Shown here one piece after another: positions 562 to 3,981 of a DNA stretch of 64,000 nt. Within the stretch, counting starts at the first letter, position 1. Every line of letters begins with the position of its first letter. Both the position numbers and the translations under genes were made by a program. Origin of the DNA: a virus; the IMG/VR virus record IMGVR_UViG_3300040801_001025, positions 1 to 64,000 of that record; one strand, 5' to 3'. Below the pieces are notes generated by a model that saw nothing but the letters and a program-made list of their open reading frames with translations, was not told the DNA's origin and searched no databases.

Positions 562-1069
562 ACCATTGTCGATGACGCTCACCACTGATATCAGTGGTGG
601 TATAAGAAAGTGTCATCGTGTCCCGTGGAACAGTAAAAATCATATGCTGTTTGTGTCGGGACTCTGTTCTAATAAAACTTGTGTTATGAGTTTACCTAGA
701 TATGTTGCATTGGTAGAAACTTATGGTCATAAAGTAACACAGCGTAGTATCAGTGGTCGGGAAGTGTTCGTATTGGCTGACAATACTTTGAGTTTACCTG
801 CCAGTACTGCAAAAACCGTATCTAGTTTGGATGAAGCTGTAGAAAAATCAACGCGTGAAAAGATAATTTGTATTGGAGGCAGTGATATCCATAAAATGGT
901 GTTTGACAAACTTGACTACATATATTATAATATGTTCCATGATGATTATGGATGTGATGAATTTGCAACGGAATTATTAGATAATATACATGCTAAGTTT
1001 GAGAAAGTAGAAACAGTATCACTTAGTGATGATCTAACACACTTTGTATTTAAGAGGGTAAGAAAATGA
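533..1069 (+). CDS. divergent dihydrofolate reductase-like protein
   Basis: N-terminal GGI...PW segment, ICIGGSDI motif and D-x-F near the C-terminus match the DHFR layout; several residues are degenerate. Confidence 0.6.
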   Translation: MLKKAPTYRKPLSMTLTTDISGGIRKCHRVPWNSKNHMLFVSGLCSNKTCVMSLPRYVALVETYGHKVTQRSISGREVFVLADNTLSLPASTAKTVSSLDEAVEKSTREKIICIGGSDIHKMVFDKLDYIYYNMFHDDYGCDEFATELLDNIHAKFEKVETVSLSDDLTHFVFKRVRK

Positions 1070-1752
1070 AAAGAACTATGCAAATAAAACCAGCCGAAGG
1101 CGGCGAAGACAGTAAATTATTCATGCACGATCTAGCGGACGCTTACGTTCGCCTTGCGAGTTCTTTTGGTTGAAAGGTAGAGGTCACTAAGAATGAGAGT
1201 AGCATTGACTTGGTATTTAGCGGACAGAGTTGCGAACTATTGGATGGAGAAAGCGGGCGTCACCAAATCCAAAGAGTACCACCTACTGAGAAGCGTGGTA
1301 GAACCCATACTTCTTCTATTACTGTTAGTGTCCTTGATCCATCCGGCATTGCCATAAATTCAAAATATGATCTAATTGATGATAAGTATTTCAAGATAGA
1401 ATGGTTTAGTGGCACTGGCAAGGGTGGCCAGCATCGAAATAAGAAGCAGAACAGTTGTAAGCTTACGCATATACCAACTGGAATATGTGAAGTGCGTCAA
1501 GGTAGAAGTAGAGAAATTAATTTTTCTGATGCAAAACAGTCCATTTTGCGAACTCTAGTTGAAGTAAAACAAAACCAGTTAAATGACAAAATTAGAAATA
1601 TAAAATGTGAACAAACTGGTATCGGTTCTAGAAGTGAGCAAAAAGTTAGAACTTACAGATTCCAAGACAATATTGCTATAGATCACATAACTAATAAGAA
1701 TGCTAAGCTTTCTAAAATCATGAAAGGTAAATTTCATCTATTATGGAAGTGA
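1066..1752 (+). CDS. class I peptide chain release factor-like protein (228 aa, lacks domain 1) with in-frame UGA at codon 36
   Basis: SD GAGG then ATG1066, in frame with ORF 1210..1752. IKPAEGGEDSKLF..DL..AY resembles RF EIRAGxGG..A.LF; ESGRHQIQRVPPTE (PxT); GKGGQHRNK (GGQ); VRTYRF. TGA at 1171-1173. Confidence 0.85.
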
Positions 1753-2267
1753 TGTTTAAATCCCCATTCCCATTCATCAAGTAATCCTTCATTAACTATT
1801 TGATGAATGGAAGGTATTAGTATTTCCCAAGCTTGATACGGTAAAGTTCTTCTGATAAAATTACATCGAGAGCAGCAAGGTTTAACGTTGTCTTTATTAT
1901 GTGGCAGGTTATGATCTATACGATCTATGCCTATTTTTATTTTGGCACTATTTTCAAAAGGCAATTTACAATAGGCACATCCAGTTGAAATAAGTTCATC
2001 AATTAATTCTATTGTAAGATCATTCTCTAGATTGTTTTTTTGATCAGCGTATTTTGAATCGTGATATACCCAATACGCTCGTAGTGCTGGATCATGCCGC
2101 TTTGCGTTTTGCTTCTTTCGTCTACGGTCATAGGCACCTGTTTCTTTTTTACGAAGATGCGTAGCTCTGTTCCTGCATTGCTTACATGTTTTCCTGTAAC
2201 TGTTTTTACTAGACTTTTCAAAGGCTTCTAGAGATTTTTCTTTATTACATTTATTACAGGTTTGCAT
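1734..2267 (-). CDS. HNH-type (His-Me finger) endonuclease, probably a free-standing homing endonuclease
   Basis: N-terminal CxxC pairs, CAYC, GIDRID..N.KPCCSRCN; oriented opposite to its neighbours. Confidence 0.75.
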   Translation of the reverse strand: MQTCNKCNKEKSLEAFEKSSKNSYRKTCKQCRNRATHLRKKETGAYDRRRKKQNAKRHDPALRAYWVYHDSKYADQKNNLENDLTIELIDELISTGCAYCKLPFENSAKIKIGIDRIDHNLPHNKDNVKPCCSRCNFIRRTLPYQAWEILIPSIHQIVNEGLLDEWEWGFKHHFHNR

Positions 2268-2290
2268 ATTGGTGGTCCTTTCGGTATAAT
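2262..2290 (+). promoter_or_regulatory. sigma70-like promoter for tRNA-Thr
   Basis: TTGCAT-17 bp-TATAAT. Confidence 0.6.
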
Positions 2291-2322
2291 GTCCACCAGT
2301 ATTTATTGCTGGCAGTGCAAAC

Positions 2323-2330
2323 TATAAATA
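2323..2330 (+). promoter_or_regulatory. T4-like late promoter
   Basis: TATAAATA immediately upstream of the tRNA. Confidence 0.6.
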
Positions 2331-2338
2331 GTTAACAG

Positions 2339-2413
2339 GCTCACATGGTTTAATAGGCAAAATACGACCTTGGTACGGTCGAGACCCCAGTTCGAATCTG
2401 GGTGGGAGCACCA
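2339..2413 (+). tRNA. tRNA-Thr(GGT)
   Basis: Cloverleaf: CGACC-TTGGTAC-GGTCG anticodon arm, GTTCGAATC T-loop, encoded CCA; one acceptor-stem mismatch. Confidence 0.9.
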
Positions 2414-2426
2414 ATAGGAGATAGTT

Positions 2427-2687
2427 ATGAGCGATAGGCCAACAGGCTGTACCGCTTTTCTTGAAAGCATTCGTAGACGAGAAAACTTAAAGACTCTAAA
2501 CCGCATCGCTGCCCGTGCAAACGGCGGTGAAATTAAAATGCGCGATGCGCGAATCAAAGAGCTAGAAGAAACGCTTGAAAGAATTCATGCTCTTGCTGCT
2601 GTTAAATCGAATGGCAGTGAAGTTGGCAGGCTTGGTAAGATTCGTGAGATAGCTGCGTCGAAGCTTTGTCCCTTTCATTCTGAGTAA
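2427..2687 (+). CDS. hypothetical coiled-coil protein
   Basis: SD AGGAG; ORF track. Confidence 0.65.
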   Translation: MSDRPTGCTAFLESIRRRENLKTLNRIAARANGGEIKMRDARIKELEETLERIHALAAVKSNGSEVGRLGKIREIAASKLCPFHSE

Positions 2688-2732
2688 CCATGTAGTATAC
2701 TCAGCCCTCCATAAACATACGGAGGAATCATT

Positions 2733-3242
2733 ATGGATTTTATTTTAGGCATTTTGTTTGGATGGTGGATGTGGCCAATGCTGTTCATCGCAGCGTTGTT
2801 CGCAGAGTCGACCGATTCCCATACTTGGGCAGGTTTCCTTGCGTTCTTGACGATGATTGCATTCGCTGGTGCATTTAACCTGTGGTCGTTCTCTATTACT
2901 ACTCTTGGTCTATTCTTGATTGGTTATCTTGGTGTTGGTAGCGGTCACTCGGTTTTCCGGTGGTATCGTTATACTGATATCAAGACTGAAGAGTTCAACG
3001 ATCTTCTAAATCCCGGTGAATACGAGATTAAAGCGTATGTGAATGCTACAAACTACCGTGAACAGCTAGATCGCATCACGTACTGGATTCTTATGTGGCC
3101 TGTTAGCTCGCTGGCGCACTTCTTCCGCGATGCTCTTGATCTAGTCCGTAAAATGGTCGCGACGTGGTTCTCGAACGTGTTCGATAAGATCACCAATCGC
3201 GCTCGTGATAAGGCCAACGTAGACTTGAGCAAGTACGTCTGA
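2733..3242 (+). CDS. hypothetical membrane protein
   Basis: SD GGAGG; several hydrophobic segments. Confidence 0.75.
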   Translation: MDFILGILFGWWMWPMLFIAALFAESTDSHTWAGFLAFLTMIAFAGAFNLWSFSITTLGLFLIGYLGVGSGHSVFRWYRYTDIKTEEFNDLLNPGEYEIKAYVNATNYREQLDRITYWILMWPVSSLAHFFRDALDLVRKMVATWFSNVFDKITNRARDKANVDLSKYV

Positions 3243-3269
3243 TATATACTTTTAACGGAGAATAAACCA

Positions 3270-3386
3270 ATGGTTAAAGAACTCTAGAAAGTTAAGAAAA
3301 TTGATGGCTGGTAGGTAGCCATTCGTGGTCCTCCTTGGACAATTGAAATTACGTTAAAACTGAAATCAATTGACCATTTATAGGAG
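3270..3386 (+). promoter_or_regulatory. putative leader peptide / translational attenuator with two in-frame UAG codons
   Basis: SD GGAG, ATG3270: MVKEL*KVKKIDGW*VAIRGPPWTIEITLKLKSIDHL*; hairpin 3331-3386 pairs CTCCT with the downstream SD AGGAG. Confidence 0.65.
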
Positions 3387-3394
3387 AAAACACA

Positions 3395-3889
3395 ATGGCT
3401 ACTGAAAACTTGAAATTTGAAATCTTTACTTGCAAGCAGCACTACCTTTACTTTCGTCAGACTTGGAAAGACTTTATCAACTCTGGCAAAGCAAAGCCGA
3501 AGTATTACCCGAACCCTAACTATGAAAATGGAAAGGATATCAAGGGAGCAAGCGCACTGACGTTTTCGCATCATTTGCTCTTCGCTTTATTGACGGGTAA
3601 AGAGCTATCTAAAATCTACACGTACTCCCCACGTAAAGGTTTTGATAGTCTTACGGAAGCTGCATCTGAGATTGGTCGATGGGCACGAGTTGCTTCTAAG
3701 ATCATTCAGTGGGAAGAGACTAGTAAGAATCCATTTGGACAATGGACTAAGCCAGAGACTATGAAGGAACGGTTAGATGCGTACCTTGAGCCTCTTGGAA
3801 TTACCTATCAGATGCTTGTAAAGTTGAATGAACTTGTAGACGTGACTACGATTGCAAGTGAATTCAAAGTTCAACAGGAAGCGGCGTAA
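3395..3889 (+). CDS. hypothetical protein downstream of the UAG leader
   Basis: SD AGGAG; ORF track; contains HHLLFALLTGK. Confidence 0.8.
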   Translation: MATENLKFEIFTCKQHYLYFRQTWKDFINSGKAKPKYYPNPNYENGKDIKGASALTFSHHLLFALLTGKELSKIYTYSPRKGFDSLTEAASEIGRWARVASKIIQWEETSKNPFGQWTKPETMKERLDAYLEPLGITYQMLVKLNELVDVTTIASEFKVQQEAA

Positions 3890-3904
3890 GCCGCTTTCCT
3901 TTTT
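3879..3904 (+). terminator. hairpin, terminator or processing signal
   Basis: AAGCGGC-GTAA-GCCGCTT followed by a T-rich run, directly before tRNA-Val. Confidence 0.55.
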
Positions 3905-3981
3905 GCGCGAATAGCTCAGTTGGTTAGAGCACTGTCTTGACATGGCAGAGGTCGCTGGTTCGAATCCAGCTTCGCGTACCA
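3905..3981 (+). tRNA. tRNA-Val(GAC)
   Basis: Canonical D-arm TAGCTCAGTTGGTTAGAGC, CTGTC-TTGACAT-GGCAG anticodon arm, GGTTCGAATCC, CCA. Confidence 0.95.

What the first reader, a model, noticed from the sequence alone, without database searches (positions are those of the whole stretch)
1066..3981. Candidate translation-termination surveillance module: paired UGA and UAG switches among tRNAs
Seen: within about 3 kb there is a UGA-gated release factor, a UAG-gated unknown gene and two tRNAs. Known: UGA and UAG are the codons specific to RF2 and RF1 respectively. Inference: the phage may monitor each host release factor and deploy a backup or counter-defence if termination is attacked or exhausted. 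The PxT-type phage factor could also close the UAG switch, linking the two. The function of 3395..3889 is unknown, and the linkage rests on proximity and shared logic only.
Basis: inference. Interest (0 to 1): 0.8.

Follow-up and report, generated by a model that had tools for sequence, protein, structure and literature searches.

The report
Two stop-codon-gated phage translation switches
A fragment of a very large phage carries, side by side, a termination-factor gene that can only be made whole by reading through a UGA stop and a tiny ribosome-stalling leader that should switch on the next gene only when UAG stops are read through; both devices are widely conserved, but they occur independently of each other, so they are two switches and not a proven single module.

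Summary
Both gates are real; their linkage into one module is not supported.

Gate 1: gene 1066..1752 encodes a short RF1-type release factor (PPT and GGQ motifs, no domain 1). Codon 36, an invariant Trp position, is TGA. All 72 distinct related phage genes examined keep TGA there, while their other Trp codons are TGG.

Gate 2: gene 3395..3889 has no internal stop. Its leader (ATG 3270) has in-frame TAGs at 3285 and 3312, then I-R-G-P-P (3321-3335). RGPP is the strongest published ribosome-arrest core. Its codons pair with the gene's Shine-Dalgarno. 34 of 37 distinct upstream regions of this gene family keep the design, always with TAG.

Linkage: the 164-aa family was found in 0 of 10 RF-bearing jumbo-phage records (8 near-complete). 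The RF was found in 1 of 14 records holding the 164-aa family.

Context: the contig is about 25% of a jumbo phage that uses the standard code. An amber-suppressor-type tRNA(CUA) occurs in 5 of 5 complete RF-bearing relatives and in the nearest relative. The gates therefore probably read phage-imposed stop-codon suppression, not host-factor damage.

This scan had already noted both devices on other DNA. I found neither in print.

The parts
533..1069 (+). DHFR-like gene. Its TGA stop overlaps the RF start (ATGA), and a 12/12 sigma-70-like promoter match lies inside it at 903-931. Context only.
1066..1752 (+). Short RF1-type class-I release factor gene (228 codons plus stop). It is whole only if the UGA at codon 36 is read as an amino acid.
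   Evidence: Pfam PCRF 4-87 and RF-1 104-202. NCBIfam RF1 150.8 bits against RF2 83.6. Solved RF1 chains are the best matches, with W36 aligned to the RF1 Trp.
1171..1173 (+). In-frame TGA at the invariant Trp position (codon 36), in the context GGT TGA AAG.
1279..1287 (+). PPT tripeptide, the PxT-type stop-codon recognition motif of RF1.
   Evidence: P 71/72, P 72/72, T 72/72
1423..1431 (+). GGQ peptidyl-tRNA hydrolysis motif.
   Evidence: 72/72
2339..2413 (+). tRNA-Thr(GGU). Syntenic in the relatives L001-L003.
3257..3260 (+). Shine-Dalgarno (GGAG) of the leader ORF.
3270..3335 (+). Leader ORF up to the arrest core: M-V-K-E-L, TAG (3285-3287), 8 codons ending in W, TAG (3312-3314), V-A-I-R-G-P-P (RGPP = 3324-3335).
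3315..3401 (+). Predicted hairpin. The arrest-codon strand (3315-3338) pairs with SD AGGAG (3382-3386) and with the AUG region of gene 3395. An inner stem-loop lies between the two strands.
   Evidence: 150-nt fold, z -3.65, 0 of 200 shuffles as stable. (SD paired to the arrest codons in 30 of 30 distinct leaders).
3395..3889 (+). 164-aa gene of unknown function, the gated output. The family is conserved (F..KEHYLAFRQAWKDYINSGKAK, LEPFG, C-terminal -EAA).
3877..3898 (+). Terminator-like hairpin plus T-run that overlaps the stop of the 164-aa gene.
3905..3981 (+). tRNA-Val(GAC).

Best explanation
Two separate translational gates, each opened by stop-codon read-through, lie next to each other in the tRNA-rich region of a jumbo-phage fragment that otherwise uses the standard code.

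Gate 1. The phage encodes an RF1-type release factor without domain 1. Ribosomes stop at UGA codon 36 unless it is decoded as Trp. Decoding could be by near-cognate tRNA-Trp(CCA) or, in some relatives, by a tRNA(UCA). The amount of phage RF1-type factor should therefore follow how poorly UGA is terminated, that is, RF2 activity against UGA-reading tRNAs. Shown: the gene, the conserved TGA, and purifying selection before it. Inferred: read-through and its regulation.

Gate 2. A leader ORF begins with its own SD and ATG and meets UAG after 5 codons and again after 14.
- If RF1 terminates there, the hairpin that buries the SD and AUG of the 164-aa gene stays closed.
- If both UAGs are read through, most likely by a phage amber-suppressor tRNA(CUA), the ribosome reaches I-R-G-P-P. 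It then stalls on the very codons that form the anti-SD strand, and this frees the SD.
Shown: the conserved architecture, the exclusive use of TAG, the codon-like wobble, and the in-silico pairing. Inferred: the stalling, the unmasking, and the identity of the tRNA.

The two gates are not an obligate pair. A functional cross-talk, in which the phage RF1-type factor re-closes the UAG gate, follows from RF1 specificity but is untested.
For: Gate 1:
- TGA at codon 36 in 72 of 72 distinct related genes. The other Trp codons are TGG, and the +4 base is A 50, G 20, C 2, T 0.
- Residues 1-35 are the most conserved segment: mean pairwise identity 0.72 against 0.63-0.67 for the rest.
- W36 aligns with the Trp of solved RF1.
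- Four database proteins that carry W36 are 100% identical to loci whose codon 36 is TGA. The 'W' therefore comes from gene calls made with a TGA=Trp table.

Standard code:
- 95% of the contig is covered by table-11 ORFs. Stops are TAA 67, TGA 36, TAG 15, and only the RF is interrupted.
- Six genomes were checked and none gains coverage under a recoded table.

Gate 2:
- 34 of 37 distinct upstream regions have SD-ATG, 2-11 codons, TAG, an optional second ..W-TAG, then (I/L/N/S)R(G/E)(P/S)P in frame, 70-85 nt before the main ATG. Every internal stop is TAG.
- Pattern control: TAG 27, TAA 2, TGA 0 distinct hits.
- The SD is paired to the arrest codons in 30 of 30 distinct leaders, median z -2.98.
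- RGPP is the most robust, EF-P-resistant arrest core in print (PMC12992588; abstract and passages read).

Suppressor tRNAs:
- tRNA(CUA) is in 5 of 5 complete RF-bearing genomes fetched, in the nearest relative G025, and in G010 about 1.3 kb from its leader-gated gene. tRNA(UCA) is in 1 of 5.

Independence of the two gates.
Against: - There is no experiment, and no RNA or protein data. No RNA holder was listed.
- The contig is about 25% of the genome and holds no tRNA(CUA) or tRNA(UCA). The trigger is inferred from relatives.
- Leader peptides are as short as 9-10 residues, shorter than the characterised arrest peptides. Arrest by such short chains is untested.
- Variants L001 and L003 of the nearest relative have lost the leader by a deletion.
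- The L002 leader folds only weakly better than shuffles when flanks are included (z -1.28).
- No hairpin follows the UGA in this window (z +1.1). Read-through efficiency may therefore be very low.
- The RF and the 164-aa gene are also neighbours in the nearest relative, which is compatible with some local linkage.
Confidence: 0.6

Rival explanations
1. The two gates form one surveillance module that monitors host RF2 (through UGA) and host RF1 (through UAG). It deploys a backup factor and a counter-defence protein when termination is attacked or exhausted.
For: UGA is RF2-specific and UAG is RF1-specific (established). Both gates are real. They are neighbours here and in the nearest relative G014. 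The same contig also encodes a tmRNA, so the phage invests in termination and rescue.
Against: The genes are independently distributed: 0 of 10 and 1 of 14 records (control). An RF1-type factor cannot replace RF2 at UGA, so it is not a backup for the factor that gates it. Phage-encoded tRNA(CUA) offers an internal trigger for the UAG gate. I know of no attack on release factors by a defence system (recalled, not searched for specifically).
Confidence: 0.15
2. The UGA in the RF gene is only a fixed throttle that keeps a potentially toxic factor at about 1% expression. It has no sensing role, and the neighbouring leader is unrelated.
For: There is no universal read-through-stimulating structure after the UGA. 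A dedicated tRNA(UCA) is present in only 1 of 5 complete genomes.
Against: A weak start site would achieve the same result. Strict retention of TGA, never TAA, TAG or TGG, in 72 of 72 genes at 44-100% protein identity argues for a property specific to UGA. T is never the +4 base.
Confidence: 0.2
3. The phage reads TGA as Trp or TAG as an amino acid throughout (table 4-like or table 15-like), so the internal stops are ordinary sense codons.
For: Phages with recoded stops that encode RF1 or RF2 and suppressor tRNAs are known (Borges et al. preprint, passages read). tRNA(CUA) is present in relatives. One relative has an in-frame TAG in a membrane-protein gene.
Against: Table 11 gives 95% coverage of the contig. 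TGA closes 36 and TAG 15 of 118 ORFs, and the RF itself ends in TGA. Only one interrupted gene was found. Recoded tables give no gain in coverage in 4 genomes.
Confidence: 0.03
4. Decay or artefact. The RF is a pseudogene or an assembly error, and the leader is a chance ORF in a spacer.
For: TGG-to-TGA is a single-base change. Gene callers split the gene (P0002, 170 aa).
Against: The same TGA is found in 72 of 72 distinct genes from many samples, and the upstream segment is highly conserved. The leader is kept in 34 of 37 regions with third-base wobble. A contig from another run covers 3246-3396 without a difference.
Confidence: 0.01

Closest known systems
prfB (RF2) autoregulatory programmed +1 frameshift (SD-like element, CUU UGA C at codon 26)
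   Same: A release-factor gene carries an early in-frame UGA, so its synthesis depends on how well UGA is terminated.
   Different: Here the frame continues unchanged: GGN UGA A/G, with no CUU and a stop in the +1 frame. The product is RF1-type and should not read UGA, so the control would be cross-regulation and not autoregulation. The Atkins et al. 2016 review states that in-frame read-through versions are unknown for bacterial RF2 and RF1 genes (PMC5009743, passages read).
Giant amoeba-virus release-factor gene expressed by read-through plus frameshifting (mentioned in PMC5009743; primary paper not read)
   Same: A virus-encoded termination-factor gene that needs stop-codon read-through.
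   Different: That is a eukaryotic-type factor in a eukaryotic virus and also needs a frameshift. This one is a bacterial RF1-type factor lacking domain 1, with a single UGA at a Trp position.
RAPP/RGPP-type regulatory arrest peptides (ApdA, ApdP, ApcA; SecM with RAGP; Streptomyces uORFs; PMC12992588, PMC10987492)
   Same: A small upstream ORF ends in or near R-G-P-P, lies on the same strand just before the regulated gene, and its arrest site overlaps a structure that hides the downstream SD.
   Different: The known ones sense protein export or insertion through an N-terminal signal or membrane segment. Here the leader has 9-40 codons and no such segment. The input is whether 1-2 UAG codons ahead of the motif are read through.
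Stop-codon-recoded phages with a 'code-change module' of suppressor tRNA, aaRS and RF (Borges et al., 10.1101/2021.08.26.457843)
   Same: Phage-encoded suppressor tRNAs and release factors, and the idea that the meaning of stop codons changes during infection to time gene expression.
   Different: Those phages carry in-frame stops in many late genes, and their RF genes are written in the standard code (passages; Table S2 could not be seen). Here the genome uses the standard code, and only sentinel positions carry the stop.
Engineered amber-codon leader switches (TAG placed in the tna leader peptide; Liu, Yanofsky and Arkin 2011, as summarised in PMC6412442)
   Same: [quoted passage not shown]
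   Different: That switch is synthetic, acts on transcription through Rho, and is based on tnaC. This one is natural, acts on translation, and is based on RGPP arrest.

Membership tests
Class-I release factor RF1 (prfA) | PCRF and RF-1 domains | tested here: met
   PF03462 at 1.2e-18 (residues 4-87) and PF00472 at 3e-15 (residues 104-202). Solved RF1 chains are the best matches at 2e-32.
Class-I release factor RF1 (prfA) | PxT recognition tripeptide and GGQ | tested here: met
   PPT at residues 72-74 and GGQ at residues 120-122, kept in 71-72 of 72 relatives. The meaning of the motifs is established knowledge (recalled).
Class-I release factor RF1 (prfA) | N-terminal domain 1, and a full-length score above the curated cut-off | tested here: not met
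   The match starts at profile position 108 of 347 and at 116 of 361. It scores 150.8 bits against a cut-off of 400. I therefore call it RF1-type, not an equivalog.
PrfH | Score above the TIGR03072 cut-off | tested here: not met
   35 bits against a cut-off of 166.65, and only over the GGQ domain.
prfB-type programmed +1 frameshift | CUU UGA C slippery site with an upstream SD-like element, and the ORF continuing in the +1 frame | tested here: not met
   The homology continues in frame 0 across the TGA. The context is GGT TGA AAG, and the +1 frame meets TAG two codons later.
Programmed read-through with a downstream stimulatory RNA structure | A conserved stable structure just 3' of the stop | tested here: inconclusive
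   The 60 nt after the UGA give the lowest median z in the gene (-1.89; 16 of 36 below -2). The window itself (z +1.1) and L001 (z -0.25) have no such structure, while L011 does (z -3.3).
RAPP/RGPP-type arrest-peptide leaders | An RGPP or RAPP core near the end of a small uORF directly upstream of a same-strand gene | tested here: met
   RGPP lies at 3324-3335, 59 nt before ATG 3395. The core is RGPP in 13, RGP-stop in 12 and variants in 9 of the 34 leaders.
RAPP/RGPP-type arrest-peptide leaders | Translation arrest shown by toeprint or reporter | not testable with these tools
   This needs cell-free translation or reporters.
RAPP/RGPP-type arrest-peptide leaders | An N-terminal export or membrane segment that relieves the arrest | tested here: not met
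   The leaders have only 2-11 codons before the first TAG, which leaves no room for such a segment.
SD-sequestering translational attenuators (ermC-like logic) | The downstream SD is paired to a strand that a ribosome on the leader would occupy | tested here: met
   In silico only. At least 3 SD bases pair to the arrest-codon strand in 30 of 30 distinct leaders. In the window the SD and the AUG are both paired.
Stop-codon-recoded phage (table 4 or table 15) | Many genes with in-frame TGA or TAG, and coding density restored only by the alternative table | tested here: not met

The most novel reading that the evidence does not exclude
The two gates are the arms of one circuit that toggles the meaning of UAG during infection without recoding the genome. 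A phage amber-suppressor tRNA opens the RGPP leader gate and, with it, a small regulon of UAG-dependent genes. The phage RF1-type factor is itself licensed only when UGA termination fails or a UGA-reading tRNA-Trp variant is expressed. It later restores UAG termination and shuts the gate. The infected cell would thus pass through a programmed window of amber suppression.
Probability: 0.2. Interest if true: 0.9.

Novelty: new variant of a known kind. Interest (0 to 1): 0.75.

Why it matters
If the mechanisms hold, phages that keep the standard code still use stop-codon read-through as a regulatory signal, in two ways that I could not find in print.

1. A bacterial-type release-factor gene gated by an in-frame UGA at a Trp codon. 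A major recoding review lists this as unknown for bacterial RF genes.
2. An arrest-peptide switch whose input is the decoding state of UAG.

Both could be tested directly with simple reporters. They would give natural, compact sensors of suppressor-tRNA and release-factor activity for synthetic biology. They would also link phage tRNA arrays, suppressor tRNAs, release factors and tmRNA into a picture of phage control over translation termination.

The output protein, the 164-aa family, has a confident predicted structure with no known fold match. It is a defined target for functional work.

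Tried and rejected
- Near-identical DNA in GenBank phages: none.
- Pfam, NCBIfam and PHROGs for the 164-aa protein: no family.
- ESM Atlas: only unnamed viral clusters, with structural TM at most 0.39.
- AlphaFold2 model of the 164-aa protein: pLDDT 90.6. Foldseek against PDB gave best E 0.26. VIA-align wide gave best Z 4.2, only common helical arrangements. This is no evidence that the fold is new.
- Selenocysteine at the UGA: rejected. The position is an invariant Trp, there is no hairpin after the UGA in this window, and ARAGORN's 'SeC(tca)' tRNA in G021 has 72 nt.
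- +1 or -1 frameshift at the UGA: rejected.
- Internal restart as the real product: unlikely, because residues 1-35 are the best conserved segment.
- Short RFs of GenBank huge phages (L085-L089) belong to another clade. They have different in-frame stops, or none, and no Trp at this position. L090 is a full-length bacterial-type RF1. I dropped these from all counts.
- L004 holds only a GGQ-domain relative and was dropped.
- Strict leader-pattern hits in complete RF-bearing genomes lacked an SD and look like chance.
- Pth2 (PF01981) in this contig: none.
- Sequencing runs: no RNA holder was listed. Three DNA runs hold small shares (salt marsh, unnamed metagenome, microbial mat). Laid contigs cover parts at 85-100% likeness, and none of the listed differences falls on 1171-1173. 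However, 67 differences were not shown and parts of the stretch are not covered.
- Literature searches found no paper on a UGA-interrupted phage RF1-type gene or on a UAG-gated RGPP leader. Supplementary tables, such as Borges Table S2, were closed and may list such RFs.

Full report
WHAT IS THERE

The window is the first 64 kb of an 84,498-bp viral contig with 41.6% G+C. CheckV rates the contig 25% complete. Its relatives are phages of 335-524 kb.

Under table 11, ORFs of at least 50 aa cover 95% of the contig. Stops are TAA 67, TGA 36 and TAG 15, and only one gene looks interrupted: the release factor. The genome is not recoded.

GATE 1: THE RELEASE FACTOR (1066..1752)

- The ORF starts at ATG 1066, which overlaps the stop of a DHFR-like gene (ATGA). 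It has TGA at 1171-1173 (codon 36) and ends at TGA 1750-1752.
- Pfam PCRF matches residues 4-87, across the stop, and RF-1 matches 104-202.
- NCBIfam prefers RF1 (150.8 bits) over RF2 (83.6) and PrfH (35). The match begins at profile position 108, so domain 1 is missing, and the score is below the curated cut-off.
- The decoding tripeptide is PPT (PxT type) and GGQ is present.
- Solved RF1 chains are the best matches, and their Trp in '..GW..EV' aligns with codon 36.

Conservation of the TGA:
- A profile of 20 family members (A2) found 479 confirmed relatives in IMG/VR, of which 80 were returned. All 80 have a stop at the aligned codon.
- It is TGA in 77 of 77 parsed loci and in 72 of 72 distinct nucleotide sequences, counting the window.
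- These proteins are as little as 44% identical to each other.
- The other Trp codons in the same genes are TGG. Codon 35 is always Gly. The +4 base is A 50, G 20, C 2, T 0.
- Terminal stops are TAA 67, TGA 9 and TAG 1 of 77, so TGA still ends genes in some of these phages.
- Residues 1-35 are the most conserved part (0.72 mean pairwise identity). The segment before the stop is therefore under selection as part of the protein.

The 'W' in database proteins:
- In the protein database 107 of 121 aligned entries show 'W' at this position.
- Four of them are 100% identical to IMG/VR loci whose codon is TGA, and 14 of 119 are at least 97% identical.
- Entries on long contigs are N-terminally truncated calls.
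- The 'W' is best explained by gene callers choosing a TGA=Trp table on short contigs.

RNA structure after the UGA:
- The stretch just after the UGA is on average the most structured 60-nt window of the gene.
- The window's own gene has no such hairpin (z +1.1), whereas L011 has one (z -3.3).

GATE 2: THE LEADER OF GENE 3395..3889

The 164-aa ORF itself is uninterrupted. Upstream lie, in one frame:
- SD GGAG (3257-3260) and ATG 3270, then five codons;
- TAG (3285-3287), then eight codons ending in Trp;
- TAG (3312-3314), then V-A-I-R-G-P-P (RGPP = 3324-3335);
- further codons and a third TAG (3381-3383).

This frame is not that of ATG 3395.

The RNA folds so that the strand holding the second TAG and the RGPP codons pairs with SD AGGAG (3382-3386) and with the AUG region of the gene, around an inner stem-loop. 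The z-score is -3.65, and 0 of 200 shuffles fold as stably.

The 164-aa protein has 53 representative relatives at E up to 1e-3. I fetched their loci from viral contigs (14) and from metagenomes (37). Of 37 distinct upstream regions, 34 show the same design:
- SD and ATG, then 2-11 codons;
- TAG, and in 8 cases a second '..W/T/G-TAG';
- then, in frame, 0-5 codons and (I/L/N/S)-R-(G/E)-(P/S)-P or R-G-P-stop;
- the R codon lies 70-85 nt before the main ATG.

The three exceptions are:
- a contig end (L116);
- a locus without a leader (L121/L122);
- the second copy of a tandem pair (L124).

Further support:
- All 42 internal stops are TAG. The base after the first TAG is A 25 or G 9.
- The conserved block varies at third codon positions (ATH CGY GGN CCN), as a translated frame would.
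- A strict pattern scanned over all 1.2 Mb of loci on both strands gave 27 distinct hits with TAG. 25 were upstream of this family, one was upstream of another gene in L111, and one was probably chance. The same pattern gave 2 hits with TAA and 0 with TGA.
- In 30 of 30 distinct leader RNAs at least 3 SD bases pair with the arrest-codon strand. The median z is -2.98.
- RGPP occurs once in the six-frame translation of the contig.
- RGPP is reported as the most robust, EF-P-resistant arrest core and the most avoided tetrapeptide in bacterial proteomes (PMC12992588; abstract and passages read).

WHAT COULD READ THE STOPS

The contig has only four tRNAs (Thr-GGU, Val-GAC, Met-CAU, Ser-GGA) and a tmRNA. 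It begins just where the relatives have a large tRNA array.

- The nearest relative has 57% RF identity and the same gene order. Its records G014 and G025 carry about 41 tRNAs upstream of the RF. These include a canonical-looking tRNA(CUA) and two tRNA-Trp(CCA), one with a 3-bp D-stem.
- I fetched five of the eight near-complete RF-bearing jumbo genomes. All five have one or two tRNA(CUA). One (G021) also has a tRNA(UCA), about 2.3 kb from its RF gene.
- G010 has the leader-gated gene but no RF. Its tRNA(CUA) lies about 1.3 kb from that gene.
- None of these genomes gains coding density under a recoded table, and TAG is their rarest stop.

I have no control set of RF-free jumbo phages. This is co-presence, not enrichment.

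ARE THE TWO GATES ONE MODULE?

- Within plus or minus 6 kb, homologues of the 164-aa gene occur only in the closest syntenic relative and in none of the other 74 RF loci.
- At record level, the RF profile matched 1 of 14 records holding the 164-aa family. These are fragments, 2-78% complete.
- The 164-aa profile matched 0 of 10 RF-bearing records, 8 of them at least 98% complete. The same search found its target in 5 of 5 positive controls.
- What remains is shared logic, and the biochemical expectation that an RF1-type factor terminates at UAG and so opposes the leader's read-through.

HOW IT MOST LIKELY WORKS

Shown:
- the anatomy of both gates;
- their conservation and the stop-codon specificity;
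- the standard code of the genome;
- the predicted pairing;
- the presence of tRNA(CUA) in relatives.

Inferred:
(a) UGA-36 is read as Trp by tRNA-Trp or by a UGA-reading tRNA, in competition with RF2. That UGA is the leakiest stop and is misread by tRNA-Trp is recalled knowledge.
(b) Ribosomes that pass the leader's UAGs stall at RGPP and free the SD of the 164-aa gene.
(c) The natural trigger is the phage's own amber suppressor.
(d) The phage factor may close the gate again.

The function of the 164-aa protein is unknown. Its model is confident (pLDDT 90.6), but no fold match stands out.

COMPARISON WITH WHAT IS KNOWN

- The RF gate resembles prfB autoregulation in using an early UGA. It differs in frame, context and specificity. 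A review states that read-through versions are unknown for bacterial RF1 and RF2 genes and mentions a giant-virus case. The prfB survey found no such case (passages).
- The leader resembles RAPP/RGPP arrest leaders and ermC-type attenuators, with a new input. An engineered amber-codon leader switch exists.
- Recoded phages with RF and suppressor modules are the nearest biological context.

EARLIER NOTES OF THIS SCAN

Earlier notes describe the UGA-gated short RF, and a frameshift-gated cousin, on other genomes. They also describe the amber-gated RGPP leader on at least 76 genomes, usually ahead of Pth2-like genes near tRNA(CUA).

I reached the same readings from my own calls before opening the leader notes. 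One locus here (L100) does have a Pth2-like ORF two genes after the 164-aa homologue. This contig has none.

VERDICT

They are remarkable and, as far as my seven literature searches show, unpublished. The 'surveillance module' interpretation is only partly supported.

Noticed in passing
same contig beyond the window: G000 66,741-67,062 (L283 2741-3062): A permuted (two-piece) tmRNA gene. Rfam tmRNA_permuted scores 98.5 bits (gathering 47) and beta_tmRNA 90.9 (gathering 84). ARAGORN reads the tag as ANDAFYDEEIALAA. It is another translation-rescue element in this phage.
   Followed up: partly
window 1734..2267 (-): An HNH / endonuclease VII-like gene (phrog_1035, 2e-20) sits between the RF gene and tRNA-Thr. 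The relatives L001-L003 have small + strand ORFs there instead. It is probably a homing-endonuclease insertion.
   Followed up: partly
L002 6570..7121 (homologue of window 2733..3242): The membrane-protein homologue in the nearest relative has an in-frame TAG at codon 20 (6627-6629), with homology on both sides. It may be a second UAG-dependent gene in that lineage. The window's copy has none.
   Followed up: partly
L001 / L003 6538..7080: A variant of the nearest relative carries a deletion of about 0.7 kb. It fuses the start of the membrane-protein gene to the 164-aa homologue and removes the leader.
   Followed up: partly
L230 5753-5824 (= L228 9456-9527): The nearest relative has a second tRNA-Trp(CCA) of 72 nt, with a 3-bp D-stem and a mismatched anticodon stem, next to a canonical one. 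D-arm changes in tRNA-Trp are known to allow UGA reading (Hirsh suppressor; recalled). It is a candidate reader of the RF's UGA.
   Followed up: no
alignment A4 (164-aa family), C-terminus; window 3875..3886: Many family members end in -EAA or -AA, which recalls ssrA-like C-terminal degradation tags. Untested.
   Followed up: no
L111 1421 and 2077: Two TAG/RGPP leaders lie in one locus. One is ahead of a 164-aa-family gene and one is ahead of an unrelated gene, so the leader cassette is used with other outputs.
   Followed up: no
L100 7251..7550: A Pth2-like ORF lies two genes downstream of the leader-gated 164-aa homologue. This matches the scan's earlier notes on leader, unknown gene and Pth2 operons.
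   Followed up: partly
window 903-931 and 1066-1069: A perfect 12/12 sigma-70-type promoter match lies inside the DHFR-like gene, about 135 nt before the RF start. The DHFR-like stop overlaps the RF ATG (ATGA). The number of promoter matches in the region is not above shuffles.
   Followed up: no
L085-L089 (GenBank LR7565xx, LR745206 huge phages): Another clade of short RF1-like genes. They have in-frame stops at other positions, or none, and no Trp at the position studied here. I did not determine which stop codons these are.
   Followed up: no
G021 about 143.1 kb (RF) and 145,422-145,493 (tRNA): In this complete jumbo genome a tRNA with anticodon UCA lies about 2.3 kb from the UGA-gated RF gene, and a tRNA-Trp(CCA) about 4.5 kb away.
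   Followed up: partly
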